Sequence record: MN850610.1
From: Escherichia phage Andreotti
Length of the DNA stretch: 64,000 nt
Strand: one strand, 5' to 3'
Numbering within the stretch: the first letter of the stretch is position 1; each line of letters opens with the position of its first letter. The position numbers and the translations under genes are program-made. The notes beneath the pieces are model-generated. The model was given only the letters and a program-made list of their open reading frames with translations. It made no database searches and was not told the DNA's origin. This document shows, in pieces, positions 1,800-54,235 of this stretch.

Positions 1800-2069
1800 T
1801 TACTTCCTCGTTTTAAGAACTGCTAAGATTTCTTTAGAGTCTGGTAAGAACCATGTGTAGTGATTCTCTTTGATTTCTGGATGAGTGTCAACCTTTATTT
1901 TGCACTCTTTACCAACATGCTTAAGCTGTGCTGTGACACCTTGCATAAAGATATGACACATCACATTATCCATAATGGTTGGTAAGAAGTCAATTCGCAT
2001 ATAAGTTTCTTTTGGTCGTGGTAACAGTAAGTAACCTTCTACATAGAAAGTGTCTTGATTCTCTGTCAT
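1800..2069 (-). CDS. hypothetical protein
   Basis: co-directional ORF, 2-nt gap to upstream gene. Confidence 0.45.
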   Translation of the reverse strand: MTENQDTFYVEGYLLLPRPKETYMRIDFLPTIMDNVMCHIFMQGVTAQLKHVGKECKIKVDTHPEIKENHYTWFLPDSKEILAVLKTRK

Positions 2070-2335
2070 TGCTGCTTATTCCCTAATAAAATCATGTCAA
2101 TAAGGTTATTAGCTTTAATTGTACACTGGTAAAAGCCGTCACGGTAGAACTCAAGTGCTTCTGCTACATCACTGCCTGTGTTGCCTTTGATGATATACCG
2201 TGACTCTTCTTGAGTGTACTTATCACTCTCACTTACTTGGGAGTTTTTGAATGTACTGTTCACTTTGTTCGTTGAACACCCTGACATAGTTATCAGTAAC
2301 ACAAACATTATAAAACTCTGGCTTAGTTTTTTCAT
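2066..2335 (-). CDS. o-spanin candidate (outer-membrane lipoprotein), overlapping the 3' end of the upstream gene
   Basis: N-terminal signal MKKLSQSFIMFVLLITMSGC with lipobox-like MSGC; start lies inside 2229-2576 in another frame, the classic overlapped Rz/Rz1 arrangement. Confidence 0.4.
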   Translation of the reverse strand: MKKLSQSFIMFVLLITMSGCSTNKVNSTFKNSQVSESDKYTQEESRYIIKGNTGSDVAEALEFYRDGFYQCTIKANNLIDMILLGNKQQ

Positions 2336-2576
2336 ATGTTAGTACCTCTTTTGTATGCTTATTCTTAGCAAGCACATCTTTCAAATCATTTTTGTAATTG
2401 GTGCTCAGTGTGACTAATCCTTCCTGATAAGCATCTTTAGCAACACTTATGAGCTTTTGATTGTTTAGCTCAGTTTCAGCAACTTGATAGTCTCTGTAAG
2501 AGTATCCTCCCCAGACACCTGCACCAACTAAGAAAACAATTATGAAAGTAGCTTGACAGAACTCTTTAAATGTCAT
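2229..2576 (-). CDS. i-spanin candidate (N-terminal TM anchor plus periplasmic helical domain)
   Basis: hydrophobic segment ATFIIVFLVGAGVWGGY then charged helical region; overlapped by lipoprotein ORF. Confidence 0.4.
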   Translation of the reverse strand: MTFKEFCQATFIIVFLVGAGVWGGYSYRDYQVAETELNNQKLISVAKDAYQEGLVTLSTNYKNDLKDVLAKNKHTKEVLTYEKTKPEFYNVCVTDNYVRVFNEQSEQYIQKLPSK

Positions 2577-2595
2577 TTAACAATCTCCTGAAATG

Positions 2596-2616
2596 AAAAA
2601 GGCTCCCGAAGGAGCC
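2596..2616 (-). terminator. intrinsic terminator (hairpin ggctcc-cgaa-ggagcc followed by U-run on minus-strand transcript)
   Basis: plus strand shows A5 then GC hairpin; downstream of gene ending at 2629. Confidence 0.55.
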
Positions 2617-2628
2617 TGTATCTTAACC

Positions 2629-3093
2629 TTAACCGAGGACTTTAGCAAGGATATTTGCAGCCATCGAAGAAGCTTTTGCAGCAGCAACTACGCCAGCTTT
2701 GACAGTGCTATCCTTGATAGCAGATACCGTTGCAGCATCAGTAAAGAGATAAGTAGTTGTTTTAGAACCACTTGTAAAGGAAAGCATAAGAGCAGTTTCC
2801 AGATTGAAAGAGCGATACGGAGCACCTTCTTTAACGATACCTTCAGCACCTAATTCTGAAGCCATCCCCATATCATAGATAGTCATCAGGTTTTCTTTGT
2901 GTGCTGTGGTTGAGCCAGAACCTTTTACGTGTTTCTTAACATTCAAAAGAGCACGATACTCTCGGATGTTACCGTCTGCTTTTACGTTGACAGCACGGAA
3001 AATTTTACCCTCAAAGTTGCTCTTGATAATGTTACGAACTACTTCAGATTTGTTTGCCGTAACGTCCAGTGCTACCGTAATGATATTGTTCAT
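2629..3093 (-). CDS. hypothetical protein
   Basis: co-directional ORF; no recognisable motif. Confidence 0.5.
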   Translation of the reverse strand: MNNIITVALDVTANKSEVVRNIIKSNFEGKIFRAVNVKADGNIREYRALLNVKKHVKGSGSTTAHKENLMTIYDMGMASELGAEGIVKEGAPYRSFNLETALMLSFTSGSKTTTYLFTDAATVSAIKDSTVKAGVVAAAKASSMAANILAKVLG

Positions 3094-3103
3094 AAGTTTT
3101 CTC

Positions 3104-3799
3104 TCAATGTTTAACTAACATGGTTTTGATGTGTGGAAGTATTCTGTTCACCTTCTGCACATTCTTCTCTGTGTCTTCTATAAAACATACTATATTAAAG
3201 TAAGGCAGAATGCAAGACTGAATCATCCTCACTTTCAAACTTTCTGCACTTATAGAGTTAGTCCCAAAACCACGCATAAAAAGCATGTAGTCATGCTCTG
3301 TGTTATGCCTTAAAAACATCTCAGTAGGTATTCTCTGAGATTCACCTCTCGCTGTCAAGAGTCCAATGGCAGCATGACTAGCAATTGCATCAATAATACT
3401 AAAGACATACGTTGGTTTTGCTCTTACAGAGTCAAGAAGATTAGTGTACTGTGAGAATGACCCATCAGTCAATTCCGTTGAGCAATCTTCGTGATTAAAA
3501 TTTGTAAGAACACCATCAATATCTGCTAAGATGAGGTTACCTTTTTCTACAAGGTCTTTATTGACTATGACTAAACTGTCACGTCTTACACCTATAGATT
3601 GTCCGGTCTCTTTGTCCACAACGTTCACAATTGGCTCTGATGTGTGAAACTCTTCAAGTGAACATACAACTTCTCTTGCAGTGTCTTCAAAATCCCTACA
3701 CTGTTCTGGAGTCCATACACAGGAATCAAGACCTAACTCATGAGGATGTAAGTCATAAGCATGGCACAGTACTTCATCAGACTTTTTTAATTTTTTCAT
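3104..3799 (-). CDS. HAD-superfamily phosphatase, possibly 5'(3')-deoxyribonucleotidase-like
   Basis: LILADIDGVLTNF resembles the DxDGVLxDF motif I of HAD/NT5C enzymes; motif sits about 90 aa from the N-terminus, so assignment is tentative. Confidence 0.35.
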   Translation of the reverse strand: MKKLKKSDEVLCHAYDLHPHELGLDSCVWTPEQCRDFEDTAREVVCSLEEFHTSEPIVNVVDKETGQSIGVRRDSLVIVNKDLVEKGNLILADIDGVLTNFNHEDCSTELTDGSFSQYTNLLDSVRAKPTYVFSIIDAIASHAAIGLLTARGESQRIPTEMFLRHNTEHDYMLFMRGFGTNSISAESLKVRMIQSCILPYFNIVCFIEDTEKNVQKVNRILPHIKTMLVKH

Positions 3800-4325
3800 G
3801 GTTTACCTTAGAAATGTTTATTGCAAATTCACATTGAGCGATGACTTTCATATTGTTATAGACATCTTGAGAGTATTTCTTAGCTTTAGGAATTTTGTAC
3901 GAATACCCAGCATTATATGATGCTAAAACTTTTTGTAAAGTCTTCTTTGACTTTGGCTGACCATGCACCTTTGTCCAAAACTCAAGCTCTTTGTGCGTTT
4001 CCTTCGCAGCATAGTCAAAGTCTTTTAAGAGTTTCTTTTTAGCCACATTAGGACTAATTTTGTTACGCTTTACAACAGTCTTCAAGTGATTCTGGAAAAT
4101 ACCATAATCATGTGTCTTTTTATTCTCTACCTTCAGACCTAACTCTGACTCTTGTAAGGCTATAGCAGCTAGAGTGATACCCCAACCTTTACCCATGTTA
4201 TTCTCACCATACTGGTAAGCTTTTAACATGTTTACTTTTTGGCTAATTGATAGCTCTGGGCAGTCAACTGCATAAGATAAGTGTGCTGTAAACATTAAGC
4301 ACAAACCTAGAATCAATTTCTTCAT
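3777..4325 (-). CDS. soluble lytic transglycosylase (SLT domain) with N-terminal signal peptide; endolysin candidate
   Basis: signal MKKLILGLCLMFTAHLSYA; SLT motifs AIALQESELG (catalytic Glu), GIFQ, SYNAGY. Confidence 0.65.
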   Translation of the reverse strand: MKKLILGLCLMFTAHLSYAVDCPELSISQKVNMLKAYQYGENNMGKGWGITLAAIALQESELGLKVENKKTHDYGIFQNHLKTVVKRNKISPNVAKKKLLKDFDYAAKETHKELEFWTKVHGQPKSKKTLQKVLASYNAGYSYKIPKAKKYSQDVYNNMKVIAQCEFAINISKVNHEKIKKV

Positions 4326-4384
4326 TGGTTCTCCTGTTTAGTTTATCGTGACAACAATTATACAGTACTCTGCACAAAACACAA

Positions 4385-4412
4385 ATAAAAAAGGCCGCCG
4401 AAGCAGCCTTTT
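4385..4412. terminator. GC hairpin flanked by A-run and T-run (bidirectional terminator-like)
   Basis: aaaaaaggccgccgaagcagcctttt between convergent-like gap after gene ending 4426. Confidence 0.4.
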
Positions 4413-4425
4413 AAGAAATTACTTA

Positions 4426-5535
4426 TTAGCTTTCACGTTTACGTTGGGAGATAAGTTCTCCAGCAGTACCAACGATGACATGTAAAGCTTCAGTCTTGCC
4501 ATCCCATGCTTTCAGCACTTTACGTTGATTATCAACGATTGCTGCAACTTCATAACGAGACGAGCGCATCTTCATATCGTTGTAATCAGTTGGTACGGAT
4601 ACAACGTCTCGTGGATGGACACGAACCTTCAGAATTGTATCACCTGAGAAACAACGAACATAATCCCAAGCACCAACATGAAGACCTTGAGAGCAAGTCA
4701 CGTTACGGTTATTATCAACCATCCAACGTGGCATTTCTACAATGTTACCCAAATCATTAGGTACTCTGTAGGTGTGGGAGTCAACCAGCTTGCCTTCACG
4801 AGTAGATACTTTCTTCCAACCAATGATGTAGCCTTCTTCATCAATTTCAACATCAAGGTGAGATACGAAGCCCCAAAGTTGTTCTACGGAATCTTTAGAT
4901 GGGTTTTCCATCAGTTTTTCGAAGAACATCACAAGGCGTTCGAAACCTTTATCTCCAGTCTTCATCATGTGAAGAATACGGTCAACCAGAGTAGAACGCA
5001 TCTCAACAGCACCATAGAATAGTTTGTCGCCTTTGATTGTGATAGCACCCTGAGTGAAGTTTTCGATAGACTTACGAATGTTCATCAGTTCAAAGGCTTT
5101 CTTAAACTCACCTTTCACAACATGAACTACAATCTCTTGATAGTTCGGATGAGTAGATTCAACAATTTCAGACTCTGAACCGTAAGTCATAATTACAGAG
5201 TCACCAGTAATCATGTACTCAATCTTGTCATCTTTCTGCATAGCTTCATGCAGTTTATTTACTGGAGCTTTCTGTACAGCATCTTTAACAACCTTTTCAA
5301 CTGGTTTGTCAGCTTTCTTTTTAAAGGTCTTAGCAACTTGCTTCAAAGTCTTCGTAGCTGGTGTAGAAGTCACCTTCTTATTCCCTTTTAAGGTTGCTTC
5401 ATGACGCTCTACAGCACGACCGACTGAACGGGTTGAGGTGTTAAATTTCTGTGCAATAGCGGTTTTAGTCAGCTTGCCCTCTTTAACCAGTTTGTAAATT
5501 TCTGCGTCAATCTGTGCTTTAGTTTTAGTAGTCAT
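4426..5535 (-). CDS. rIIB: rIIB-like protein
   Basis: immediately downstream of the rIIA-like gene in the same orientation and of comparable size to T4 rIIB; no motif verified. Confidence 0.45.
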   Translation of the reverse strand: MTTKTKAQIDAEIYKLVKEGKLTKTAIAQKFNTSTRSVGRAVERHEATLKGNKKVTSTPATKTLKQVAKTFKKKADKPVEKVVKDAVQKAPVNKLHEAMQKDDKIEYMITGDSVIMTYGSESEIVESTHPNYQEIVVHVVKGEFKKAFELMNIRKSIENFTQGAITIKGDKLFYGAVEMRSTLVDRILHMMKTGDKGFERLVMFFEKLMENPSKDSVEQLWGFVSHLDVEIDEEGYIIGWKKVSTREGKLVDSHTYRVPNDLGNIVEMPRWMVDNNRNVTCSQGLHVGAWDYVRCFSGDTILKVRVHPRDVVSVPTDYNDMKMRSSRYEVAAIVDNQRKVLKAWDGKTEALHVIVGTAGELISQRKRES

Positions 5536-5584
5536 CTTATTACTCTCTCTTGTTAGTTAATAAATCATTTTGTGATGCCATTTT

Positions 5585-8556: not shown

Positions 8557-10338
8557 TTAAAGCTGCTTGTCAATATTATTTCGAATATCTCCAAGAGTTG
8601 TATAACCGAACTGCTCAGAGTCGCTAAAGACTAAACGTAAAGCACAAGCTTGGTGGTCAAGTACATCTGCAAAACTCTGGAATCCATAGCCATCTACAGC
8701 TTTCAGCTTATCACCATCCCACATAGGTGCTACACCACCAAAGGCAGATTTCTTAACACCACTATCTGTTTTAGGGTCTTTTGCAAGCATAATCTCTTTA
8801 CCACCAATGCTTGCAAGAGTTGCTTTGACAGCAAATGCAAAGGTGTCACGAGTCATGTACTGGTAAGTGTAAGAGCCTACACCAAACACTACGTTAGAGC
8901 TTGCAAAACCCATTTCATACAGACGCTTCAGGATTTCGTTTGCACGTTCCAGCGTGATAGAGTCACCATAGATAAGGCCGATGTGCTCATCCAGTACCTT
9001 AAACCCTTTAGAGTTAATAGTCCCTCCGAAGATGTTGTACAGGGTCTTAATAGCTCCATCAATCTCTGCTACAGGACGTGTTACAACGTTTGCAGAGCCA
9101 ACCATATAAGCATTTTTCAACATCACTGTATCAGCAACTCCAAAGTCTTCTCTGTCAACAACCATTTCGTAGCCTTCTGACAGTAGCCATCCAGCAATAC
9201 CATAGTTGATGTTTTCAAGCTTCATGTTCAGAACAGCATTCAACATTGTGTCACTAGCTTCCAGCTTGCTTAGGTGCTCATAATAAGCCTTCTTAGCACA
9301 CTCTAAGTGGATTGCTTTATAGCCTGTGACAATATGTACAGGGTCTCCAGAGTCAGGGCGAATTACCAGCTTACCATCACGTTCCATAATTTCTTTACGA
9401 AGTGCTGGTAAGATTTCTGACACAGTTCTCCAGAAGTTATAAGTATCTGAAACAATACTTGCAATACCAGTTGGGTAAGTTTCTGTTAAGAAACGACGGA
9501 AGGTTTGCAACTCACCTTTAAAGCGTCTTTCCTCTTCAATCAATTCATTACCACCTTCCCAAGCAATGTTTGCACACATTACAGAGTGTTCAGTGGCTGG
9601 TACAGAACTACCAATATCAGAAATTGGGTAAGACTGTCCATAGATGCGTTTAGCCGTGTATACAGCAGGGAAGCTATCAGTTCCTTTAAAGCTGGTTAAG
9701 TGACCTACAGCATTAAATGCGTCATCGGTAAAGCCGGACATACCACGCATAGCAAAGTCATGGCACTGATAAGGTAAATGTAAGTCATTGTCGCAAGTAA
9801 GGTCAGCCCACTTCTTACAGATACGTTTGTAGTGCAATGCAATAGTTGCAATGGTGCAAGTCTTCCAAATCTCAGCAGAGAAAGCATCTTCCAGATAACC
9901 TGCTACCCAATGGAAACCTGAAACAGTGTTCTGGAAGACAATCATTGGAACACACATAGGAACAACTGTACCTTCTTCTACAGCGTATACTTCAACTGGT
10001 AGATAGCCTAAATCGTGAAGTGCTTCCCAATGCTCTCGACCGATAGCATCTTTACCCAGAACACCATTCATGACTTCTAAGATTTCGTCAACTGCTTCTT
10101 TTTTATCACGTTCAAAGAAAGTGGCGTTCCAGTGGTCTATCAGGTAATCTTTAACGAAACGTTGAATACCAAAAGCTACTACACCATCAATTGCTAAGGG
10201 GCTGTTAAACCATTTGTCACTACGTGGTGTCAGGTTGAACATCAAGTATTCTGTTGCACTAGGGTACTGGTAAACATGACCAGATTTGTAAGCATCTGCG
10301 TTTAAACCTGCTGGTACTGCGTAAAGCGATTTAGTCAT
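8557..10338 (-). CDS. nicotinamide phosphoribosyltransferase-like protein (NAMPT/NadV family, or the related Namat)
   Basis: 593-aa ORF directly downstream of a Prs-like gene; assignment rests on size and gene pairing known from Felix-O1/KVP40-type phages, not on a verified motif. Confidence 0.5.
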   Translation of the reverse strand: MTKSLYAVPAGLNADAYKSGHVYQYPSATEYLMFNLTPRSDKWFNSPLAIDGVVAFGIQRFVKDYLIDHWNATFFERDKKEAVDEILEVMNGVLGKDAIGREHWEALHDLGYLPVEVYAVEEGTVVPMCVPMIVFQNTVSGFHWVAGYLEDAFSAEIWKTCTIATIALHYKRICKKWADLTCDNDLHLPYQCHDFAMRGMSGFTDDAFNAVGHLTSFKGTDSFPAVYTAKRIYGQSYPISDIGSSVPATEHSVMCANIAWEGGNELIEEERRFKGELQTFRRFLTETYPTGIASIVSDTYNFWRTVSEILPALRKEIMERDGKLVIRPDSGDPVHIVTGYKAIHLECAKKAYYEHLSKLEASDTMLNAVLNMKLENINYGIAGWLLSEGYEMVVDREDFGVADTVMLKNAYMVGSANVVTRPVAEIDGAIKTLYNIFGGTINSKGFKVLDEHIGLIYGDSITLERANEILKRLYEMGFASSNVVFGVGSYTYQYMTRDTFAFAVKATLASIGGKEIMLAKDPKTDSGVKKSAFGGVAPMWDGDKLKAVDGYGFQSFADVLDHQACALRLVFSDSEQFGYTTLGDIRNNIDKQL

Positions 10339-42000: not shown

Positions 42001-42028
42001 AAAAAAGGCTCCCGTAAAAAGGAGCCTT
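42001..42028. terminator. terminator between convergent thyA and minus-strand block (hairpin ggctcc-cgtaaaaa-ggagcc)
   Basis: A6 before and T-rich stretch after the hairpin; strongest for the minus-strand transcript. Confidence 0.5.
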
Positions 42029-42034
42029 AAAATT

Positions 42035-42406
42035 TTATTTTTCAGTATTCTTTGTGTTCTTCTCAGTAATAGCTTGGAGGGCTGATACTGATTGAGCCAG
42101 ATTATTTACACTGTCAGAGAATTTATCAAGAGTTTTGGTAAGTTTTGCGTTTTCACCCTTAACATTCTCTAACTGAACTTTCTGGTTCTCCATCCCTAGC
42201 TGAATCAGTCTCATGTCAGACTGTAAATCACGAATAGCTGAATAGTTACTTTTGGAATAATTATCTAGCTGCTGTAACTTTGTTGTGACAGACACTTCTT
42301 GCTTACCACTTGAAACTTGCATAGTGGTATACATCCCAATAACACTAAAAATACCAACAACAATTACACCAATATTGTTTTTAAAAGCTTCCTCTAGCCA
42401 CTTCAT
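42035..42406 (-). CDS. membrane-anchored coiled-coil protein
   Basis: N-terminal TM IGVIVVGIFSVIGMY then helical region. Confidence 0.4.
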   Translation of the reverse strand: MKWLEEAFKNNIGVIVVGIFSVIGMYTTMQVSSGKQEVSVTTKLQQLDNYSKSNYSAIRDLQSDMRLIQLGMENQKVQLENVKGENAKLTKTLDKFSDSVNNLAQSVSALQAITEKNTKNTEK

Positions 42407-42600: not shown

Positions 42601-42679
42601 TTAATCACCTCATCAGCCAAGATGGTGAGAATACCCATAAAGAATATTAACACCATCTTAACAATCAGTCAACAAGGGA

Positions 42680-45022
42680 TTAAGCAGTTCTCACCCAAGC
42701 CATTAACTTGTAGAACTGGTTAGTAACACTAAATGCTGAACCAGAACCTGTACCACCAGTGTTACCACTTACTGTATGACTGTGAGCACCAATACCAACA
42801 CTGTGAGCATGGTTACCAGCAGAAGCGGCAGTACCACTTACGGAGTGGGTGTGAGCACCGTTAGCATCGGTGTAACCCGGTCCTACACCAATACTACCAC
42901 CACCACCACCAGAGTAGTGTGTAGAGTTCTGACCAATCCACGAAATGGAATGGTTGTGGTTACCAGCAGATGAAGTAGAGCCACTTACAGAGTGAGTGTG
43001 AGCACCAGTCGTGTTAGTGTTTTTTGTTCCGTAGTCAAACGATGAGGTAGTCGCAGAAAAACTGTGCGTGTGCGAAGGTAAGTTACCAACAGCTAACGTT
43101 ACAGAATCTGAACCACCAGTTGTAGCAACATCTGAACCATTTGCTGCTGCAATTCTAATAGTCCTACCAACACCATTCTTCAGATACGTCCAAGTTAGGC
43201 CAGGCAGTGCTGTATTAGGGTTAACATTACTGTTAAACCACGTCACAATACCTACTGGATAGATTTTATTCAGGTCTGTAGAGTCACTAATTGCTTCTGC
43301 AATCTTCTGGTCAGTTTCAGCTTTAGTGTATGCACCAATCTCTGAAGGGGTAGGTTTCTGAGCTTCAGTGTAAACCTTAGACCATTCAACCTCAAAGCCA
43401 AGTGTGTCTCTGGCTGACCTGTACCACATCCCACCATTTTTCGATTCAAATCTTAATTGTGCAGATGGTGTTAGGGCTTTCGCATTAGAGGCCATGTGCA
43501 AGACTAAACGGTTTTGCCCACTAGATTTTGTCTCAAGATAGATTCCTGATGGTTGGTCCCAAGCCACACCACCAGCAGCCTCGGTCTTCGAAGCTCTGAA
43601 TGCTGACCAGAAATACTTTGAATCGGCTTTGTCTTTACCGTAATACCTTGCATCAAAGTTTGTGAAGTTGCTAGGTTGTACTTGACCACCAATTACTAAG
43701 TTTGCATTAATTGATACTTCGGAACCAATGCTTAGTCTTTTACCAGTTTTATAGTTATACAACCTAACAGTGTCACTGCCGTCGTCATCATTGCCAACAT
43801 ACCACCTATTCGTTCCATCATAATCCTTACCCATAATGTAAAGTTCGGAGGTTGATTTTCCTTGTAACACGAGAGCTTCACCATTAGTGTTAATAACCTG
43901 CTTTGCAGTGAACGTGTTACTTCCATTAGTTCTTGCAATTGTACTTAATGTTGCTGCTGGAATGTATCTAGAGTCAATGTTAGCCCAATCTGAAGGCTGA
44001 ACTTGACCAGTGATTTTCACAGTCTTAGTAGTGGTAATCACATTTGACAAAGAGATAGTTGTACTCGTGGTGTAGTTATGTAGGTTGACTACAGAATCAG
44101 AGTTATCAGTCCCTAAGTAGAACTTGTTTGTCCCATCAGCCTTCTGCCCCAGCAAGTATAGTCCAGTTGCAGCAGTGGCATTCTTAATGACTAGTACAGC
44201 GTTATCTCTGGTGATATTGAACTCTCCTACAAAATTGTTAATACCCCTGAAGGTGTTATTGCCAACTAGCTGTGCAAATCTCTGATTAGCTGCTGTCTGT
44301 GTGAAGTATCTTGCATCCAAGTTAGAGAAGTCAGAAGGTTGCACTTGACCATTGATTGATAAAGACCTATTAAAAGAAGCAGCCGTGCCTAGAGTGAGGA
44401 TGGAACCTAGTTTACTCTCGATTTGAACATCAAGACTACCCCTAATCAGGTTCCCAATAGCCCAAGTTTTTTCATTACTTGCATCCCTACCTACAATAGC
44501 AGAGTATGCTCTATCCCCACTCACAGGAGACCTTAGTGTTAACTGTTCCCCATTTGCTACAATTGTCTGTCTAGAGTTAAATGTGTTTGTAACAGCCAAC
44601 CTTGCATATCTTGCGTCATTCTCTTCATTAGTTCTCATCCCAAGTTCATTAGGGCTTGGCTTATTCAGAGTATGATAAACAGTTGCAGACCTTGAAGCAT
44701 CTGCAATAGTTAGTTTAAGACCGTTTGCATTGATTTTAAAAGCCTTTAAAACATCCCCCATAGTAATCTCAGAAGAGTCTGTAGGGTCAAATACTGCCTT
44801 ACCACCATAAAGTAACTTGACAATTCCTAAGTCACCCGTCATAGTGCTACCAGCAATCTGAACAAATCTTTCTAGTTTAAAAGACGCTAAGAAGTCTTGA
44901 TAGGTCATTCGACGGTCTTCATCACCTAACATTTCAGGTCTCTTTTTAACCCTGACATGGAGAAGGTCGTCTGAACGGATTGTGTCGATTGAGTTTAATT
45001 CACTCAACTTGTAATCTGCCAT
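42680..45022 (-). CDS. tail fibre protein with C-terminal His-rich HxH repeats
   Basis: 780 aa at distal end of tail module; AHTHSVSG, NHNHS, NHAHSVGIGAHSHTVSG repeats; C-terminal region similar to 45069-46217. Confidence 0.6.
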   Translation of the reverse strand: MADYKLSELNSIDTIRSDDLLHVRVKKRPEMLGDEDRRMTYQDFLASFKLERFVQIAGSTMTGDLGIVKLLYGGKAVFDPTDSSEITMGDVLKAFKINANGLKLTIADASRSATVYHTLNKPSPNELGMRTNEENDARYARLAVTNTFNSRQTIVANGEQLTLRSPVSGDRAYSAIVGRDASNEKTWAIGNLIRGSLDVQIESKLGSILTLGTAASFNRSLSINGQVQPSDFSNLDARYFTQTAANQRFAQLVGNNTFRGINNFVGEFNITRDNAVLVIKNATAATGLYLLGQKADGTNKFYLGTDNSDSVVNLHNYTTSTTISLSNVITTTKTVKITGQVQPSDWANIDSRYIPAATLSTIARTNGSNTFTAKQVINTNGEALVLQGKSTSELYIMGKDYDGTNRWYVGNDDDGSDTVRLYNYKTGKRLSIGSEVSINANLVIGGQVQPSNFTNFDARYYGKDKADSKYFWSAFRASKTEAAGGVAWDQPSGIYLETKSSGQNRLVLHMASNAKALTPSAQLRFESKNGGMWYRSARDTLGFEVEWSKVYTEAQKPTPSEIGAYTKAETDQKIAEAISDSTDLNKIYPVGIVTWFNSNVNPNTALPGLTWTYLKNGVGRTIRIAAANGSDVATTGGSDSVTLAVGNLPSHTHSFSATTSSFDYGTKNTNTTGAHTHSVSGSTSSAGNHNHSISWIGQNSTHYSGGGGGSIGVGPGYTDANGAHTHSVSGTAASAGNHAHSVGIGAHSHTVSGNTGGTGSGSAFSVTNQFYKLMAWVRTA

Positions 45023-45041
45023 TATAAATTTTCCTCTTAAA

Positions 45042-45059
45042 AGGGGCTATACAGCCCCT
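45042..45059 (-). promoter_or_regulatory. conserved intercistronic stem-loop AGGGGCT-N4-AGCCCCT between the two tail-fibre genes
   Basis: perfect inverted repeat about 20 nt upstream of the 42680-45022 start codon. Confidence 0.45.
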
Positions 45060-45068
45060 GTAAAGAAA

Positions 45069-46217
45069 TTAAGCTGTTCTCTGCCATACATACAATACGA
45101 AGGATGGCTGTTCAACACTAAATGCTTGACCAGAACCAGTTGGACCAGTTGTGCCAGAGTGCGAATGCTCACCTGCTCCGGTTACTGTTACTGTTGCTGA
45201 GTGGCTGTGGGAACCAATTGCAACAGAATGGCTGTGAGCACCAATACCAACCGTATGATTATGCGCACCAATTGCTACAGAGTGAGTGTGGTTGTTAGCT
45301 GTTGTCAACGTAGCTCTTGGGTCATAGCTTGCCCCCTCAACCGATAAACCTCTCCAGCCACCATCAGCATAGCCACGGTTAATGAATGTTGTTTGTGTTA
45401 AGCCAGCGGCACTTGTTGTTCTGTTGCCATAGTCGTAAGTAGATACGGTCTTGGTTCCGTAGTCAAACGTTGTAGTCCCTTTAGTGCCATAATCAAAAGC
45501 ACTGATAGAGGACGTTGCACCATGAGTGTGACCGCCACCAGTGACATACACTGAGTGGGTATGTGCAGGGATGTTATTAACCGTCAATGCAGTAGTCTGT
45601 GAACCAAACGTTGAACCAACTGGCCTAGAAGCACTATCATAACCTACAAGTGCTCTTCCTTTTGAAACTAACTCCCAAGTGCCTCCACAAATTAAATATG
45701 TAGAAGGGTTTGCAGGATTCATAGAGAGATGGATAGTACCTACTGGATAAGAAGCCTGAACAGCCTTGTACAAGTTATTTACTGCTCTTGCTGTAGCATA
45801 CTTATCTGCATCCTCGTTATAAAGGTTAGATGTCACCCAGTTCTGAACATTACTTAACCCAACCTGTGCCTTAGTGGTATTGTGTGGGTTGCTCTTATCA
45901 TCAATATGTTGTTGAATAAGATTATTAACCTCTTCTGAAGACATAATCTGTAGATTTGCTCTTGCCTCAGCTACATTAACAATGTCTGATAAGTTATTTT
46001 CAGCAACTAACTGGAGAGCATTAATAACGTTATCTAAACCAATTTGTGTCTTAGTAACACCATGAGGGTTATTTCTTAGGCTTGAGTGTGGAGCAAGTAA
46101 TTGCTCAAGAGTGCATCTCTTATCCTCGATACCCTGTTTAAGATGGAAGATATCACTAAGGTCAATTGGTAAGGCTGCTTGAGGCAAGGCACTAATTTGA
46201 ATTTCACCTACTGCCAT
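45069..46217 (-). CDS. tail fibre protein paralog with His-rich HxH repeats
   Basis: AHTHSV, NHTHSVAIGAHNHTVGIGAHSHSVAIGSHSHS; C-terminus GSGQAFSVEQ...WQRTA parallels GSGSAFSVTNQ...WVRTA. Confidence 0.6.
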   Translation of the reverse strand: MAVGEIQISALPQAALPIDLSDIFHLKQGIEDKRCTLEQLLAPHSSLRNNPHGVTKTQIGLDNVINALQLVAENNLSDIVNVAEARANLQIMSSEEVNNLIQQHIDDKSNPHNTTKAQVGLSNVQNWVTSNLYNEDADKYATARAVNNLYKAVQASYPVGTIHLSMNPANPSTYLICGGTWELVSKGRALVGYDSASRPVGSTFGSQTTALTVNNIPAHTHSVYVTGGGHTHGATSSISAFDYGTKGTTTFDYGTKTVSTYDYGNRTTSAAGLTQTTFINRGYADGGWRGLSVEGASYDPRATLTTANNHTHSVAIGAHNHTVGIGAHSHSVAIGSHSHSATVTVTGAGEHSHSGTTGPTGSGQAFSVEQPSFVLYVWQRTA

Positions 46218-46219
46218 TA

Positions 46220-54235
<8,016 letters not shown>

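What the first reader, a model, noticed from the sequence alone, without database searches (positions are those of the whole stretch)
42680..46217. Two adjacent tail-fibre paralogs with shared C-terminal His-rich (HxH) repeat domain
Both fibre genes end in a closely related domain with repeated HxH motifs (AHTHSV, NHNHS, GAHSHTV, GAHNHTV, GSHSHS) and near-identical C-terminal tails (GSGSAFSVTNQ...WVRTA versus GSGQAFSVEQ...WQRTA), while their N-terminal parts differ. HxH repeats in fibre tips are known from T4-type fibres as metal-coordinating motifs. Two fibres sharing a tip but differing in shaft could reflect duplication with divergence of receptor specificity or a heteromeric fibre.
Basis: seen in the sequence. 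Interest (0 to 1): 0.5.

Follow-up and report, generated by a model that had tools for sequence, protein, structure and literature searches.

The report
Felix O1-type phage's two tail fibres
These are the short and long tail fibres of a Felix O1-like coliphage, both ending in a histidine-rich, T4-like receptor-binding tip; the arrangement is real but was already described in genome papers from 2010 and 2015 and in two cryo-EM studies from 2025.

Summary
Two adjacent minus-strand genes (45069-46217, 382 aa; 42680-45022, 780 aa) share a C-terminal domain: 36% identity over about 230 aa, E=7e-21 with composition correction. It carries 7 and 6 HxH motifs against about 1 expected by chance.

The window is a Felixounavirus, 98% identical in DNA to Escherichia phage humlepung. 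The two proteins are orthologues of Bas63 gp26 (short fibre, 97% identical) and gp27 (long fibre, 70%).

Cryo-EM of Bas63 and Sf14 showed two separate homotrimeric fibres on different baseplate sites. Each ends in a T4 gp37-like collar, HxH needle and head. Both window proteins match the T4 gp37 tip crystal sequence (2XGF: 1e-17 and 9e-14).

"Sharing a tip" is imprecise, though. Only the collar, the proximal needle and the C-terminal tail are shared. The receptor-contacting head segments (STF aa 267-309, LTF aa 692-723) are unrelated (28% identity). A heteromeric fibre is not supported.

Across 37 Ounavirinae genomes the heads behave as swappable cassettes bounded by conserved FDYGTK and GIGAHxHTV boxes. 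The Felix O1 lineage carries the same head on both fibres. VpaE1 carries a T4 head cassette at 93-94% DNA identity.

Verdict: already known, low interest.

The parts
45069..46217 (-). Short tail fibre (STF) gene, 382 aa; orthologue of Bas63 gp26, Sf14 gp52 and Felix O1 gp76
   Evidence: ORF. 97% identical to Bas63 gp26. phrog_2097 tail fibre, E=8.8e-127. Pfam Gp10_C 2e-17. 2XGF 9.1e-14. Shine-Dalgarno TAGGAG 7-8 nt before the ATG, with the upstream gene's stop codon ending 2 nt before the ATG.
45750..46217 (-). STF aa 1-156: N-terminal baseplate-binding region and alpha-helical shaft, with two copies of NPHxxTKxQ(I/V)GLxNVxN (aa 50-66 and 110-126)
   Evidence: Translation. 92-100% conserved against Bas63, Felix O1 and LMP34. 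Baseplate-binding role taken from the Bas63 cryo-EM study.
45564..45749 (-). STF collar domain (aa 157-218), T4 gp10-C / gp37-collar type
   Evidence: Pfam PF21939 match at aa 154-259. Aligns to the T4 gp37 and gp10 collars. Conserved in all STFs.
45420..45563 (-). STF ascending needle strand (aa 219-266): 2 HxH motifs plus three FDYGTK-type repeats
45291..45419 (-). STF head cassette, type E (aa 267-309: TTSAAGLTQTTFINRGYADGGWRGLSVEGASYDPRATLTTANN); predicted receptor-contacting end
   Evidence: Occupies the position of the T4 gp37 head. Identity to other STFs falls to 25-42% here while the flanks stay at 86-100%. This head type was found only in phages isolated on rough E. coli. GLTQT replaces an HxH that 39 of 42 homologues have.
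45072..45290 (-). STF descending needle strand (5 HxH motifs, aa 310-353) and C-terminal tail ...GSGQAFSVEQPSFVLYVWQRTA
   Evidence: His 337 and His 339 are invariant in 42 homologues.
42680..45022 (-). Long tail fibre (LTF) gene, 780 aa; orthologue of Bas63 gp27, Sf14 gp53 and Felix O1 gp77
   Evidence: ORF. 70% identical to Bas63 gp27 overall. phrog_4277 over the full length. Shine-Dalgarno AAGAGGA at 45032-45038.
44588..45022 (-). LTF aa 1-145: conserved N-terminal baseplate- or platform-binding region
   Evidence: Roughly 82-100% identical to Bas63 per 40-aa block. Role taken from Bas63 cryo-EM.
43613..44587 (-). LTF shaft (aa ~146-470): repeated beta-helix modules separated by GQVQPSD(F/W)xNxDxRY junctions (Pfam gp37_trimer, 3 copies); highly mosaic
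   Evidence: Pfam PF20744, 3 stretches, E=1.7e-49. Only 25-75% identical to Bas63 per 40-aa block. The same variability is noted in PMC12609058.
43277..43579 (-). LTF aa 482-582: gp37_C (PF12604) domain, similar to the phage Mu tail fibre S
   Evidence: Pfam 1.1e-14. PDB 8JU3 1e-17.
43073..43261 (-). LTF collar domain (aa 588-650)
   Evidence: Aligns to the STF collar and to the T4 gp37 collar in 2XGF. The Pfam Gp10_C match is weak (22.3 bits, below the 27-bit cut-off).
42950..43072 (-). LTF ascending needle strand (aa 651-691): 3 HxH motifs plus one FDYGTK box
42854..42949 (-). LTF head cassette, type F (aa 692-723: SISWIGQNSTHYSGGGGGSIGVGPGYTDANGA)
   Evidence: Occupies the position of T4 gp37 head residues 932-965. 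Identity to other LTFs falls to 22-40% here except in Bas63-type phages. Close matches (at least 80% identity) occur only in E. coli-isolated Felixounavirus/Suspvirus phages; weaker 45-55% matches, which rest on the His-box flanks of the query, occur in other phages.
42683..42853 (-). LTF descending needle strand (3 HxH motifs, aa 724-749) and C-terminal tail ...GSGSAFSVTNQFYKLMAWVRTA
   Evidence: 100% conserved at aa 761-780 in Felixounavirus LTFs.
46220..46522 (-). 100-aa protein upstream of the STF gene; orthologue of Bas63 gp25, the trimeric LTF platform (T4 gp9-like)
   Evidence: phrog_4141 4e-62. Synteny with bas63_0025. Role from PMC12609058.
42005..42028 (.). Bidirectional intrinsic terminator that closes the minus-strand late operon (baseplate, STF, LTF and two small ORFs) and the convergent thyA unit

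Best explanation
The two genes encode the two kinds of side fibre of a Felixounavirus virion. The 382-aa protein forms the short fibre (about 430 A) and the 780-aa protein forms the long fibre (about 630 A). Each is a homotrimer present in six copies and attached by its N-terminus to a different baseplate site: the STF to a wedge protein, the LTF to the small platform trimer encoded just upstream.

Both fibres end in the same type of module as the T4 long-fibre protein gp37. The module has a globular collar followed by a thin six-stranded needle. In the needle each chain runs outward, turns in a small head and runs back, so the C-terminus returns to the collar. The HxH motifs (6 in the LTF, 7 in the STF) face the needle axis. 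By homology with T4, three chains at each HxH level coordinate one Fe(II) ion, which stiffens the needle.

The part that should touch the host is the small head between the outgoing and returning strands. In this phage the two heads are unrelated (type E on the STF, type F on the LTF). The two fibres therefore most likely recognise two different epitopes of the rough E. coli K-12-type LPS core. By analogy with T4, the LTF would scan reversibly and the STF would engage after baseplate rearrangement.

The conserved FDYGTK box and the GIGAHxHTV His box flank the head. They are the points at which head cassettes have been exchanged between phages and, in other lineages, between the two fibres.

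Shown: gene structure, homology, HxH enrichment, orthology to fibres visualised by cryo-EM, and the cassette pattern. Inferred: Fe binding, the receptor identities and the order of engagement.
For: Structure and identity:
- ORFs and motifs; paralogue alignment E=7e-21; HxH enrichment, 0 of 20,000 shuffles.
- Pfam and PHROG tail-fibre assignments; matches to the T4 gp37 tip 2XGF at 1.1e-17 and 9.1e-14.
- The locus is 98% identical in DNA to phage humlepung, and 259 phage records, nearly all Felix O1-like (Ounavirinae) phages by name, match it.
- STF 97% and LTF 70% identical to Bas63 gp26 and gp27 in a syntenic locus.

Published evidence on the homologues:
- Bas63 cryo-EM describes both fibres, their attachment sites, and the collar/HxH-needle/head tip with 7 (STF) and 6 (LTF) HxH motifs, exactly the counts found here.
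- Sf14 cryo-EM shows the same two fibres, both detected by mass spectrometry.
- Felix O1 gp77 was found in the virion proteome, with gp76 at lower coverage.

Head position and cassette pattern:
- T4 residues G938-A955, which set LPS/OmpC specificity, align with the HxH-free segments of both window proteins.
- Identity dips to 22-42% in those segments while the flanks stay at 86-100%.
- Head types reassort among 37 genomes.
- The VpaE1 LTF carries a T4 gene 37 cassette at 93-94% DNA identity, bounded by FDYGTK and GIGAHxHTV.

Receptor and expression:
- Both genes have Shine-Dalgarno sites and lie in one terminated late operon.
Against: - No metal analysis exists for any Ounavirinae fibre, so Fe binding rests on homology alone.
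- The receptor of neither fibre has been mapped. Genome-wide screens did not assign a receptor to Felixounavirus phages.
- The fibre densities in Bas63 were too weak for side-chain modelling and were fitted with AlphaFold models.
- My own AlphaFold2 monomer model of the STF was of low confidence (pLDDT 59.9, head region below 50) and gave no significant fold match.
- The LTF collar falls below the Pfam Gp10_C cut-off.
- T4 gp37 needs the chaperones gp38 and gp57A. No gp38-like gene follows the LTF gene here, so folding may differ.
- The Sf14 authors suggest that receptor contacts on the short fibre could lie nearer the middle of the fibre than its tip.
Confidence: 0.85

Rival explanations
1. 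The two proteins assemble into one heteromeric fibre, for example as proximal and distal halves or as a mixed trimer, and the shared C-terminal domain is the interaction surface.
For: The genes are adjacent and co-transcribed. They share a C-terminal domain. T4 long fibres are built from several gene products (general knowledge).
Against: Cryo-EM of Bas63 (STF 97% identical) and of Sf14 resolves two separate fibres of different length, each attached to the baseplate by its own N-terminus at a different site. Each protein has its own N-terminal attachment region and its own complete tip.
Confidence: 0.02
2. The C-terminal similarity is only low-complexity Gly/Ser/Thr/His composition and does not reflect homology.
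For: The region is compositionally biased: G, S and T together make up about 40-44% and H 6.6-6.7%. It is also internally repetitive.
Against: The E-value of 7e-21 was obtained with compositional adjustment. The alignment includes the non-repetitive collar and the C-terminal tail. Both proteins independently match the T4 gp37 tip sequence and Pfam/PHROG fibre families. The HxH spacing and context (G-x-H-x-H-[ST]-[VF]) is conserved in 42 homologues, with invariant His residues.
Confidence: 0.01
3. The pair is a recent tandem duplication within this phage lineage, and the two copies are now diverging in specificity by point mutation.
For: The genes are adjacent, in the same orientation, and share a C-terminal module.
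Against: The two genes share no extended DNA similarity; the longest exact match is 20 nt. STF-type and LTF-type scaffolds are each conserved as separate orthologue sets across Felixounavirus, Mooglevirus and Suspvirus. More distant Ounavirinae-like contigs (L039-L041) keep the STF-type HxH tip, but their second fibre has no HxH motifs. This suggests that the LTF acquired its tip by module transfer. Head differences are cassette-like with sharp boundaries, not graded.
Confidence: 0.05
4. Both fibres bind the same receptor and are functionally redundant, differing only in reach.
For: In Felix O1 and close Salmonella relatives the two fibres carry nearly the same head: 81-100% amino-acid identity and 81-91% DNA identity over 195-270 nt. 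Same-receptor pairs therefore do exist in this phage group.
Against: In the window phage, and in the five other genomes with the type E / type F head pair, the heads are unrelated (19-28% identity).
Confidence: 0.1

Closest known systems
Bas63 (Escherichia phage JohannRWettstein) gp26 short tail fibre and gp27 long tail fibre (cryo-EM, Sci Adv 2025, PMC12609058)
   Same: Syntenic orthologues. The STF is 97% identical with the same length of 382 aa. The LTF is 70% identical overall and about 90% in the tip. The HxH counts are the same (7 and 6), and both phages carry the same head types E and F.
   Different: The LTF shaft (aa ~160-480) is only 25-75% identical per 40-aa block. Bas63 has HHxH at the head-proximal motif (H692, H693, H695), whereas the window has NHNH.
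T4 gp37 receptor-binding tip (PDB 2XGF; collar, needle with 7 Fe-binding HxH motifs, head)
   Same: Significant sequence homology from the collar through the needle. The FDYGTK box and the GIGAHxHTV His boxes are shared. The HxH-free central head sits at the same position as T4 residues 932-965.
   Different: The head sequences are unrelated to the T4 head. The HxH distribution is 3+3 (LTF) and 2+5 (STF) against 3+4 in the T4 tip by my head delimitation. The tip sits on a single-polypeptide fibre rather than on the four-protein T4 long fibre. No gp38-type chaperone gene lies downstream. In this phage the same tip type is also used on the short fibre, whereas the T4 short fibre gp12 is different.
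Sf14 (Mooglevirus) gp52 and gp53 (cryo-EM, Commun Biol 2025, PMC11821841)
   Same: The same two-fibre architecture and lengths (430 and 630 A), the same gene order, and both proteins in the virion by mass spectrometry.
   Different: Different head cassettes (types C and B). The Sf14 LTF has only 4 HxH motifs and a 67-aa head.
Felix O1 gp76/gp77 and VpaE1 gp74/gp75 (genome papers PMC3185647 and PMC4690856)
   Same: Both papers already note that the two adjacent fibre proteins resemble T4 gp37 at the C-terminus.
   Different: Felix O1 carries the same head (type A) on both fibres. The VpaE1 LTF carries a T4-type head (type K). The window has types E and F.
Phage Mu tail fibre S (PDB 8JU3) / Pfam PF12604
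   Same: LTF aa 484-575 matches Mu S residues 338-427 (E=1e-17).
   Different: In the LTF this domain is internal and is followed by the gp37-type tip. No Mu U-type chaperone homologue is encoded in Sf14, according to its authors.

Membership tests
T4 gp37-type receptor-binding tip (collar-needle-head) | Sequence homology to the crystallised gp37 tip (2XGF) | tested here: met
   phmmer: LTF aa 582-759 against chain positions 23-218, E=1.1e-17. STF aa 146-352 against positions 18-229, E=9.1e-14.
T4 gp37-type receptor-binding tip (collar-needle-head) | Collar domain of the gp10-C / tail-collar type preceding the needle | tested here: met
   STF: Pfam PF21939, 64.9 bits against a 27-bit cut-off. 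LTF: only 22.3 bits, below the cut-off, but it aligns to the STF collar and the 2XGF collar.
T4 gp37-type receptor-binding tip (collar-needle-head) | Multiple HxH motifs on both the outgoing and the returning strand | tested here: met
   LTF 3+3 and STF 2+5. 0 of 20,000 shuffles reached these counts. The His columns are conserved in 42 homologues.
T4 gp37-type receptor-binding tip (collar-needle-head) | Chain reversal at a small distal head, giving a six-stranded needle in the trimer | tested here: inconclusive
   The alignment places an HxH-free segment at the T4 head position. My AlphaFold2 monomer model was of low confidence (pLDDT 59.9) and Foldseek gave no significant hit. The topology is reported for the 97%-identical Bas63 STF from cryo-EM with fitted AlphaFold models.
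T4 gp37-type receptor-binding tip (collar-needle-head) | Fe(II) ions coordinated octahedrally by the HxH motifs of three chains | not testable with these tools
   Needs metal analysis or a high-resolution structure. Inferred from T4 only.
T4 gp37-type receptor-binding tip (collar-needle-head) | Dedicated folding chaperone gene (gp38) immediately downstream | tested here: not met
   The downstream ORFs of 65 aa and 123 aa match only PHROGs of unknown function (phrog_402, phrog_4038) and no significant Pfam family. T4 has gp38 directly after gene 37. This is a difference in assembly, not in fold.
Felixounavirus/Ounavirinae STF-LTF pair (Bas63 gp26 and gp27) | Orthology and synteny: wedge genes, 100-aa platform, STF, LTF, two small ORFs, convergent thyA-frd | tested here: met
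   The gene order is identical in Bas63, Felix O1, Sf14, Michonne, Ro111lw, LMP34 and phiST56. STF 97% and LTF 70% identical to Bas63.
Felixounavirus/Ounavirinae STF-LTF pair (Bas63 gp26 and gp27) | Both proteins are virion components forming separate homotrimeric fibres | not testable with these tools
   Shown for the homologues by cryo-EM and mass spectrometry, not for this phage itself.

The most novel reading that the evidence does not exclude
The shared His-rich scaffold does more than stiffen the needle. Its conserved FDYGTK and GIGAHxHTV coding boxes may serve as recombination junctions that let a roughly 100-300 nt head cassette move in three ways:
- between phage families (T4 gene 37 to the VpaE1 LTF, 93-94% DNA identity);
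- between genera (Sf14 and Ro111lw share both head types);
- between the two fibres of one genome (Felix O1 lineage, 81-91% DNA identity).

On this reading the window phage is a "two different heads" state of a system that toggles between single- and dual-specificity fibre sets. The idea of conserved motifs acting as fibre recombination boxes exists for T-even phages (recalled from memory: Tetart, Krisch and colleagues, 1990s; I could not retrieve the papers). I did not find exchange between the short and long fibres of one genome described in the papers I read.
Probability: 0.5. Interest if true: 0.3.

Novelty: already known. Interest (0 to 1): 0.1.

Why it matters
For this window it matters little, because it re-identifies a published architecture. 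More generally, Felix O1-like phages are used for Salmonella and E. coli diagnostics and biocontrol, and their host range is set by these two fibre tips. It is useful for fibre engineering to know that only a short head segment differs between phages (STF aa 267-309, LTF aa 692-723), that this segment is flanked by conserved boxes, and that it is naturally exchanged between phages. The same facts help in predicting from sequence whether a phage has one or two receptor specificities.

Tried and rejected
1. AlphaFold2 on the STF monomer with a 42-sequence alignment gave mean pLDDT 59.9 and pTM 0.28, with the head region below 50. Foldseek against the PDB gave nothing at E<=0.001. The best hits were T4 gp10 at E=0.02 and the C24 protein at E~3. 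This is uninformative, as expected for one chain of an intertwined trimer.

2. A profile-profile comparison of the first 80 aa of STFs and LTFs gave only a weak EDKRCT/EDRRMT-centred match (E=0.013, probability 3%). I cannot confirm by sequence the structural similarity of the baseplate-binding domains reported for Bas63.

3. DNA comparison of the two window genes, looking for recent gene conversion, found only 20-36 nt matches. Recent conversion is rejected for this phage.

4. tRNA and Rfam scans of the whole window found nothing.

5. The promoter and terminator scan of the locus was no better than shuffled sequence, apart from the clear terminator at 42005-42028.

6. The Bartual et al. 2010 paper on the T4 tip structure was not available. 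I took T4 head residues from PMC5221442 instead.

7. My first automatic head delimitation, the longest HxH-free gap, wrongly picked the FDYG-repeat stretch in some STFs. I corrected this. A few sequences (L030_L, L037_L, L031_S) were still mis-parsed and are excluded from the conclusions.

Full report
**What is there.** The finding's coordinates hold two complete minus-strand ORFs. One is 45069-46217 (382 aa) and the other is 42680-45022 (780 aa), separated by 46 nt. Both have good Shine-Dalgarno sites (TAGGAG and AAGAGGA). They sit in a run of same-strand genes: baseplate J-like wedge (47382-48851), wedge (46522-47379), a 100-aa protein (46220-46522), the 382-aa gene, the 780-aa gene, and two small ORFs. 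This run ends at a strong bidirectional terminator at 42005-42028, facing the convergent thymidylate synthase and dihydrofolate reductase genes.

**Checking the observation.** BLASTP with compositional adjustment aligns aa 588-780 of the long protein with aa 157-382 of the short one at 36% identity, E=7e-21. HxH occurs 6 and 7 times against 0.35-0.99 expected, and none of 20,000 shuffles reached the observed counts. The alignment includes a non-repetitive collar and the C-terminal tail, so composition does not explain it. The N-terminal parts show no BLASTP similarity, and only a weak profile match around EDKRCT/EDRRMT (hhalign E=0.013).

**Identity of the locus.** The 5.4-kb locus is 98% identical in DNA to Escherichia phage humlepung, and 259 phage records match it, nearly all of them Felix O1-like (Ounavirinae) phages by name. 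The gene order is identical in Bas63 (JohannRWettstein), Felix O1, Sf14, Michonne, Ro111lw, LMP34 and phiST56. The 382-aa protein is 97% identical to Bas63 gp26. The 780-aa protein is 70% identical to Bas63 gp27: near-identical at both ends and 25-75% per 40-aa block in the shaft.

Pfam and PHROG searches call both proteins tail fibres. The long one has gp37_trimer (3 copies), gp37_C, a weak Gp10_C match and Phage_fiber. The short one has Gp10_C. Both match the crystallised T4 gp37 tip (2XGF) at 1.1e-17 and 9.1e-14. The long one also matches the phage Mu fibre S (8JU3) in an internal domain.

**What is already published.**
- The Felix O1 genome paper (2010) noted that gp76 and gp77 both resemble T4 gp37 at the C-terminus. 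It found gp77 in the virion proteome, with gp76 at lower coverage.
- The VpaE1 paper (2015) made the same comparison.
- The Sf14 cryo-EM paper (2025) placed two fibres of 430 A and 630 A on the tail and detected both proteins by mass spectrometry.
- The Bas63 cryo-EM paper (2025) describes the feature in the finding directly. The STF (gp26) and LTF (gp27) are separate trimers. The STF binds wedge-2A domain 2, and the LTF binds the gp25 platform, whose homologue here is the 100-aa protein. Both end in a T4 gp37-like tip of collar, six-stranded HxH needle and small head, with 7 and 6 HxH motifs.

The counts I obtained for the window match those published numbers. The finding is therefore already known, and the "heteromeric fibre" alternative is contradicted by the structures of near-identical homologues.

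**What exactly is shared.** I aligned the tips of eight Ounavirinae pairs together with T4 gp37. I then extended the comparison to 29 further IMG/VR genomes fetched through the conserved platform gene.

The collar, the proximal needle and the C-terminal tail are specific to each fibre type and highly conserved. STF tails end ...FSVEQPSFVxYVWQRTA and LTF tails end ...FSVTNQFYKLMAWVRTA.

Between the last outgoing and the first returning HxH lies an HxH-free segment. It aligns with T4 gp37 residues 932-965. That stretch includes G938, T939, V941, G943, Y949, Y953 and A955, whose mutation changes LPS/OmpC recognition in T4.

In the window these head segments are STF aa 267-309 and LTF aa 692-723, and they are unrelated to each other (28% identity). 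So the two fibres share a scaffold, not the receptor-contacting end. Windowed identities show the same thing. Against other Ounavirinae, identity falls to 22-42% in the head blocks while the flanks stay at 86-100%.

The window's STF, like that of Bas63, has also lost the head-proximal outgoing HxH. It reads GLTQT where 39 of 42 homologues have HxH, and it carries three FDYGTK-type repeats instead of two.

**Cassette behaviour.** Head sequences fall into discrete types that reassort between genomes: E/F (the window and five others), C/B, D/G, D/K, H/I, H/G, A/A and A/M. Three cases are informative.
- In Felix O1 and related Salmonella phages both fibres carry the same type A head. Amino-acid identity is 81-100% and DNA identity is 81-91% over 195-270 nt.
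- In VpaE1 (locus L019, 100% match) the LTF carries the T4 head. DNA identity to T4 gene 37 is 93-94% over about 275-287 nt, and the protein of the related L018 is 88% identical over T4 aa 898-994. The cassette begins at the FDYGTK box and ends at GIGAHxHTV.
- Sf14 (Mooglevirus) and Ro111lw (Felixounavirus) share both head types.

The window's two genes share only 20-36 nt matches, located at or near these boxes (the GIGAHSH box, the FDYGTK region and the C-terminal TGSGxAFSV region). There has been no recent exchange between them.

More distant Ounavirinae-like contigs (L039-L041) keep the STF-type HxH tip, but their second fibre has no HxH motifs. This fits the Sf14 authors' remark that the long fibre "acquired" a gp37-like tip.

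**Likely function.** Bas63 needs an intact LPS core and is little affected by O16 antigen. Felixounaviruses are grouped with LPS- or O-polysaccharide-recognising clades in large receptor screens, which gave them no receptor assignment. The window's head types E and F occur, at close identity, only in Felixounavirus and Suspvirus phages isolated on rough laboratory E. coli: K-12 MG1655, DH5alpha and C.

I therefore infer that both heads bind LPS-core structures, probably different ones. By analogy with T4 and following the Bas63 authors' discussion, the LTF would sample the surface and the STF would engage after baseplate rearrangement. Fe(II) coordination by the HxH motifs is inferred from T4 only.

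**Limits.**
- My AlphaFold2 monomer model of the STF was poor (pLDDT 59.9) and gave no significant fold match.
- No gp38-type chaperone gene follows the LTF gene.
- No experiment on this phage exists.

**Verdict.** This is a correct and careful reading of the sequence, but of a feature that is published in detail. The novelty category is "already known" and the interest is low (0.1). The cassette analysis, especially the same-head state of Felix O1 against the two-head state here and the near-identical T4 cassette in VpaE1, is a modest addition. It concerns relatives rather than this window.

Noticed in passing
window 45039-45058: A short G+C-rich hairpin (GGGGCT-GTAT-AGCCCC) followed by TTTT lies between the STF stop codon and the LTF Shine-Dalgarno site. 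It could attenuate read-through or set the STF:LTF expression ratio. It falls just below the terminator scan's T-run criterion.
   Followed up: no
window 42603-42679: The 80-nt gap after the LTF gene holds a promoter-like site (TTGACT-17-TAATAT with an upstream TG) and a 9-bp inverted repeat (AAGATGGTG...CACCATCTT). Both lie ahead of the 65-aa membrane-protein ORF.
   Followed up: no
window 42035-42406 (minus strand): A 123-aa protein with an N-terminal transmembrane segment and a long coiled coil (phrog_4038, function unknown). It is annotated "holin" in some relatives, yet its positional counterpart in Sf14, gp55 (not compared by sequence), was detected in purified virions by mass spectrometry. 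It may therefore not be a holin, or not only one.
   Followed up: partly
window 45390-45404 (STF aa 272-276): The window's STF, like that of Bas63, reads GLTQT where 39 of 42 homologues have G-x-H-x-H. It also has a third FDYG-type repeat (YDYGNR). This gives 7 HxH motifs instead of the 9 usual in Ounavirinae STFs.
   Followed up: yes
window 43580-44540 (LTF aa ~160-480): The LTF shaft is only 25-75% identical to Bas63 per 40-aa block, while both ends exceed 85%. This mosaic beta-helix repeat region was also remarked on as unexplained by the Bas63 authors.
   Followed up: partly
L002 (Felix O1) 2014-5579; L009, L010, L014, L016: In Felix O1-type Salmonella phages the short and long fibres carry nearly the same head cassette (GGRYGGDSIGGKxRVQVSGTEQVSS). 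Amino-acid identity is 81-100% and DNA identity is 81-91% over 195-270 nt. This implies exchange between the two fibre genes of one genome.
   Followed up: yes
L019 (= vB_EcoM-VpaE1) about 9000-9290; L018: The LTF of VpaE1 and of a relative contains a distal-needle and head cassette from T4 gene 37. DNA identity is 88-94%, and the protein is 88% identical over T4 aa 898-994. The cassette is bounded by the FDYGTK and GIGAHxHTV boxes.
   Followed up: yes
L039-L041 (distant Ounavirinae-like contigs), ORFs after the platform gene: The STF-type gene with the HxH tip is retained (6-10 HxH motifs), but the second fibre gene has no HxH motifs and a different C-terminus. The HxH tip on the long fibre therefore appears restricted to Felixounavirus, Mooglevirus and Suspvirus.
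   Followed up: partly
This agrees with the Bas63 paper's remark that the Si3 and EC6 LTFs look truncated.
   Followed up: no
window 45840-45890 and 46020-46070 (STF aa 110-126 and 50-66): There are two copies of a 17-aa motif, NPHxxTKxQ(I/V)GLxNVxN, in the STF shaft. They probably correspond to the "triple alpha-helix and turn" elements described for Bas63.
   Followed up: no
window 1-64000: No tRNA genes and no Rfam family at gathering score were found anywhere in the 64-kb window, although Felix O1 encodes 22 tRNAs. The tRNA cluster must lie outside this window.
   Followed up: partly
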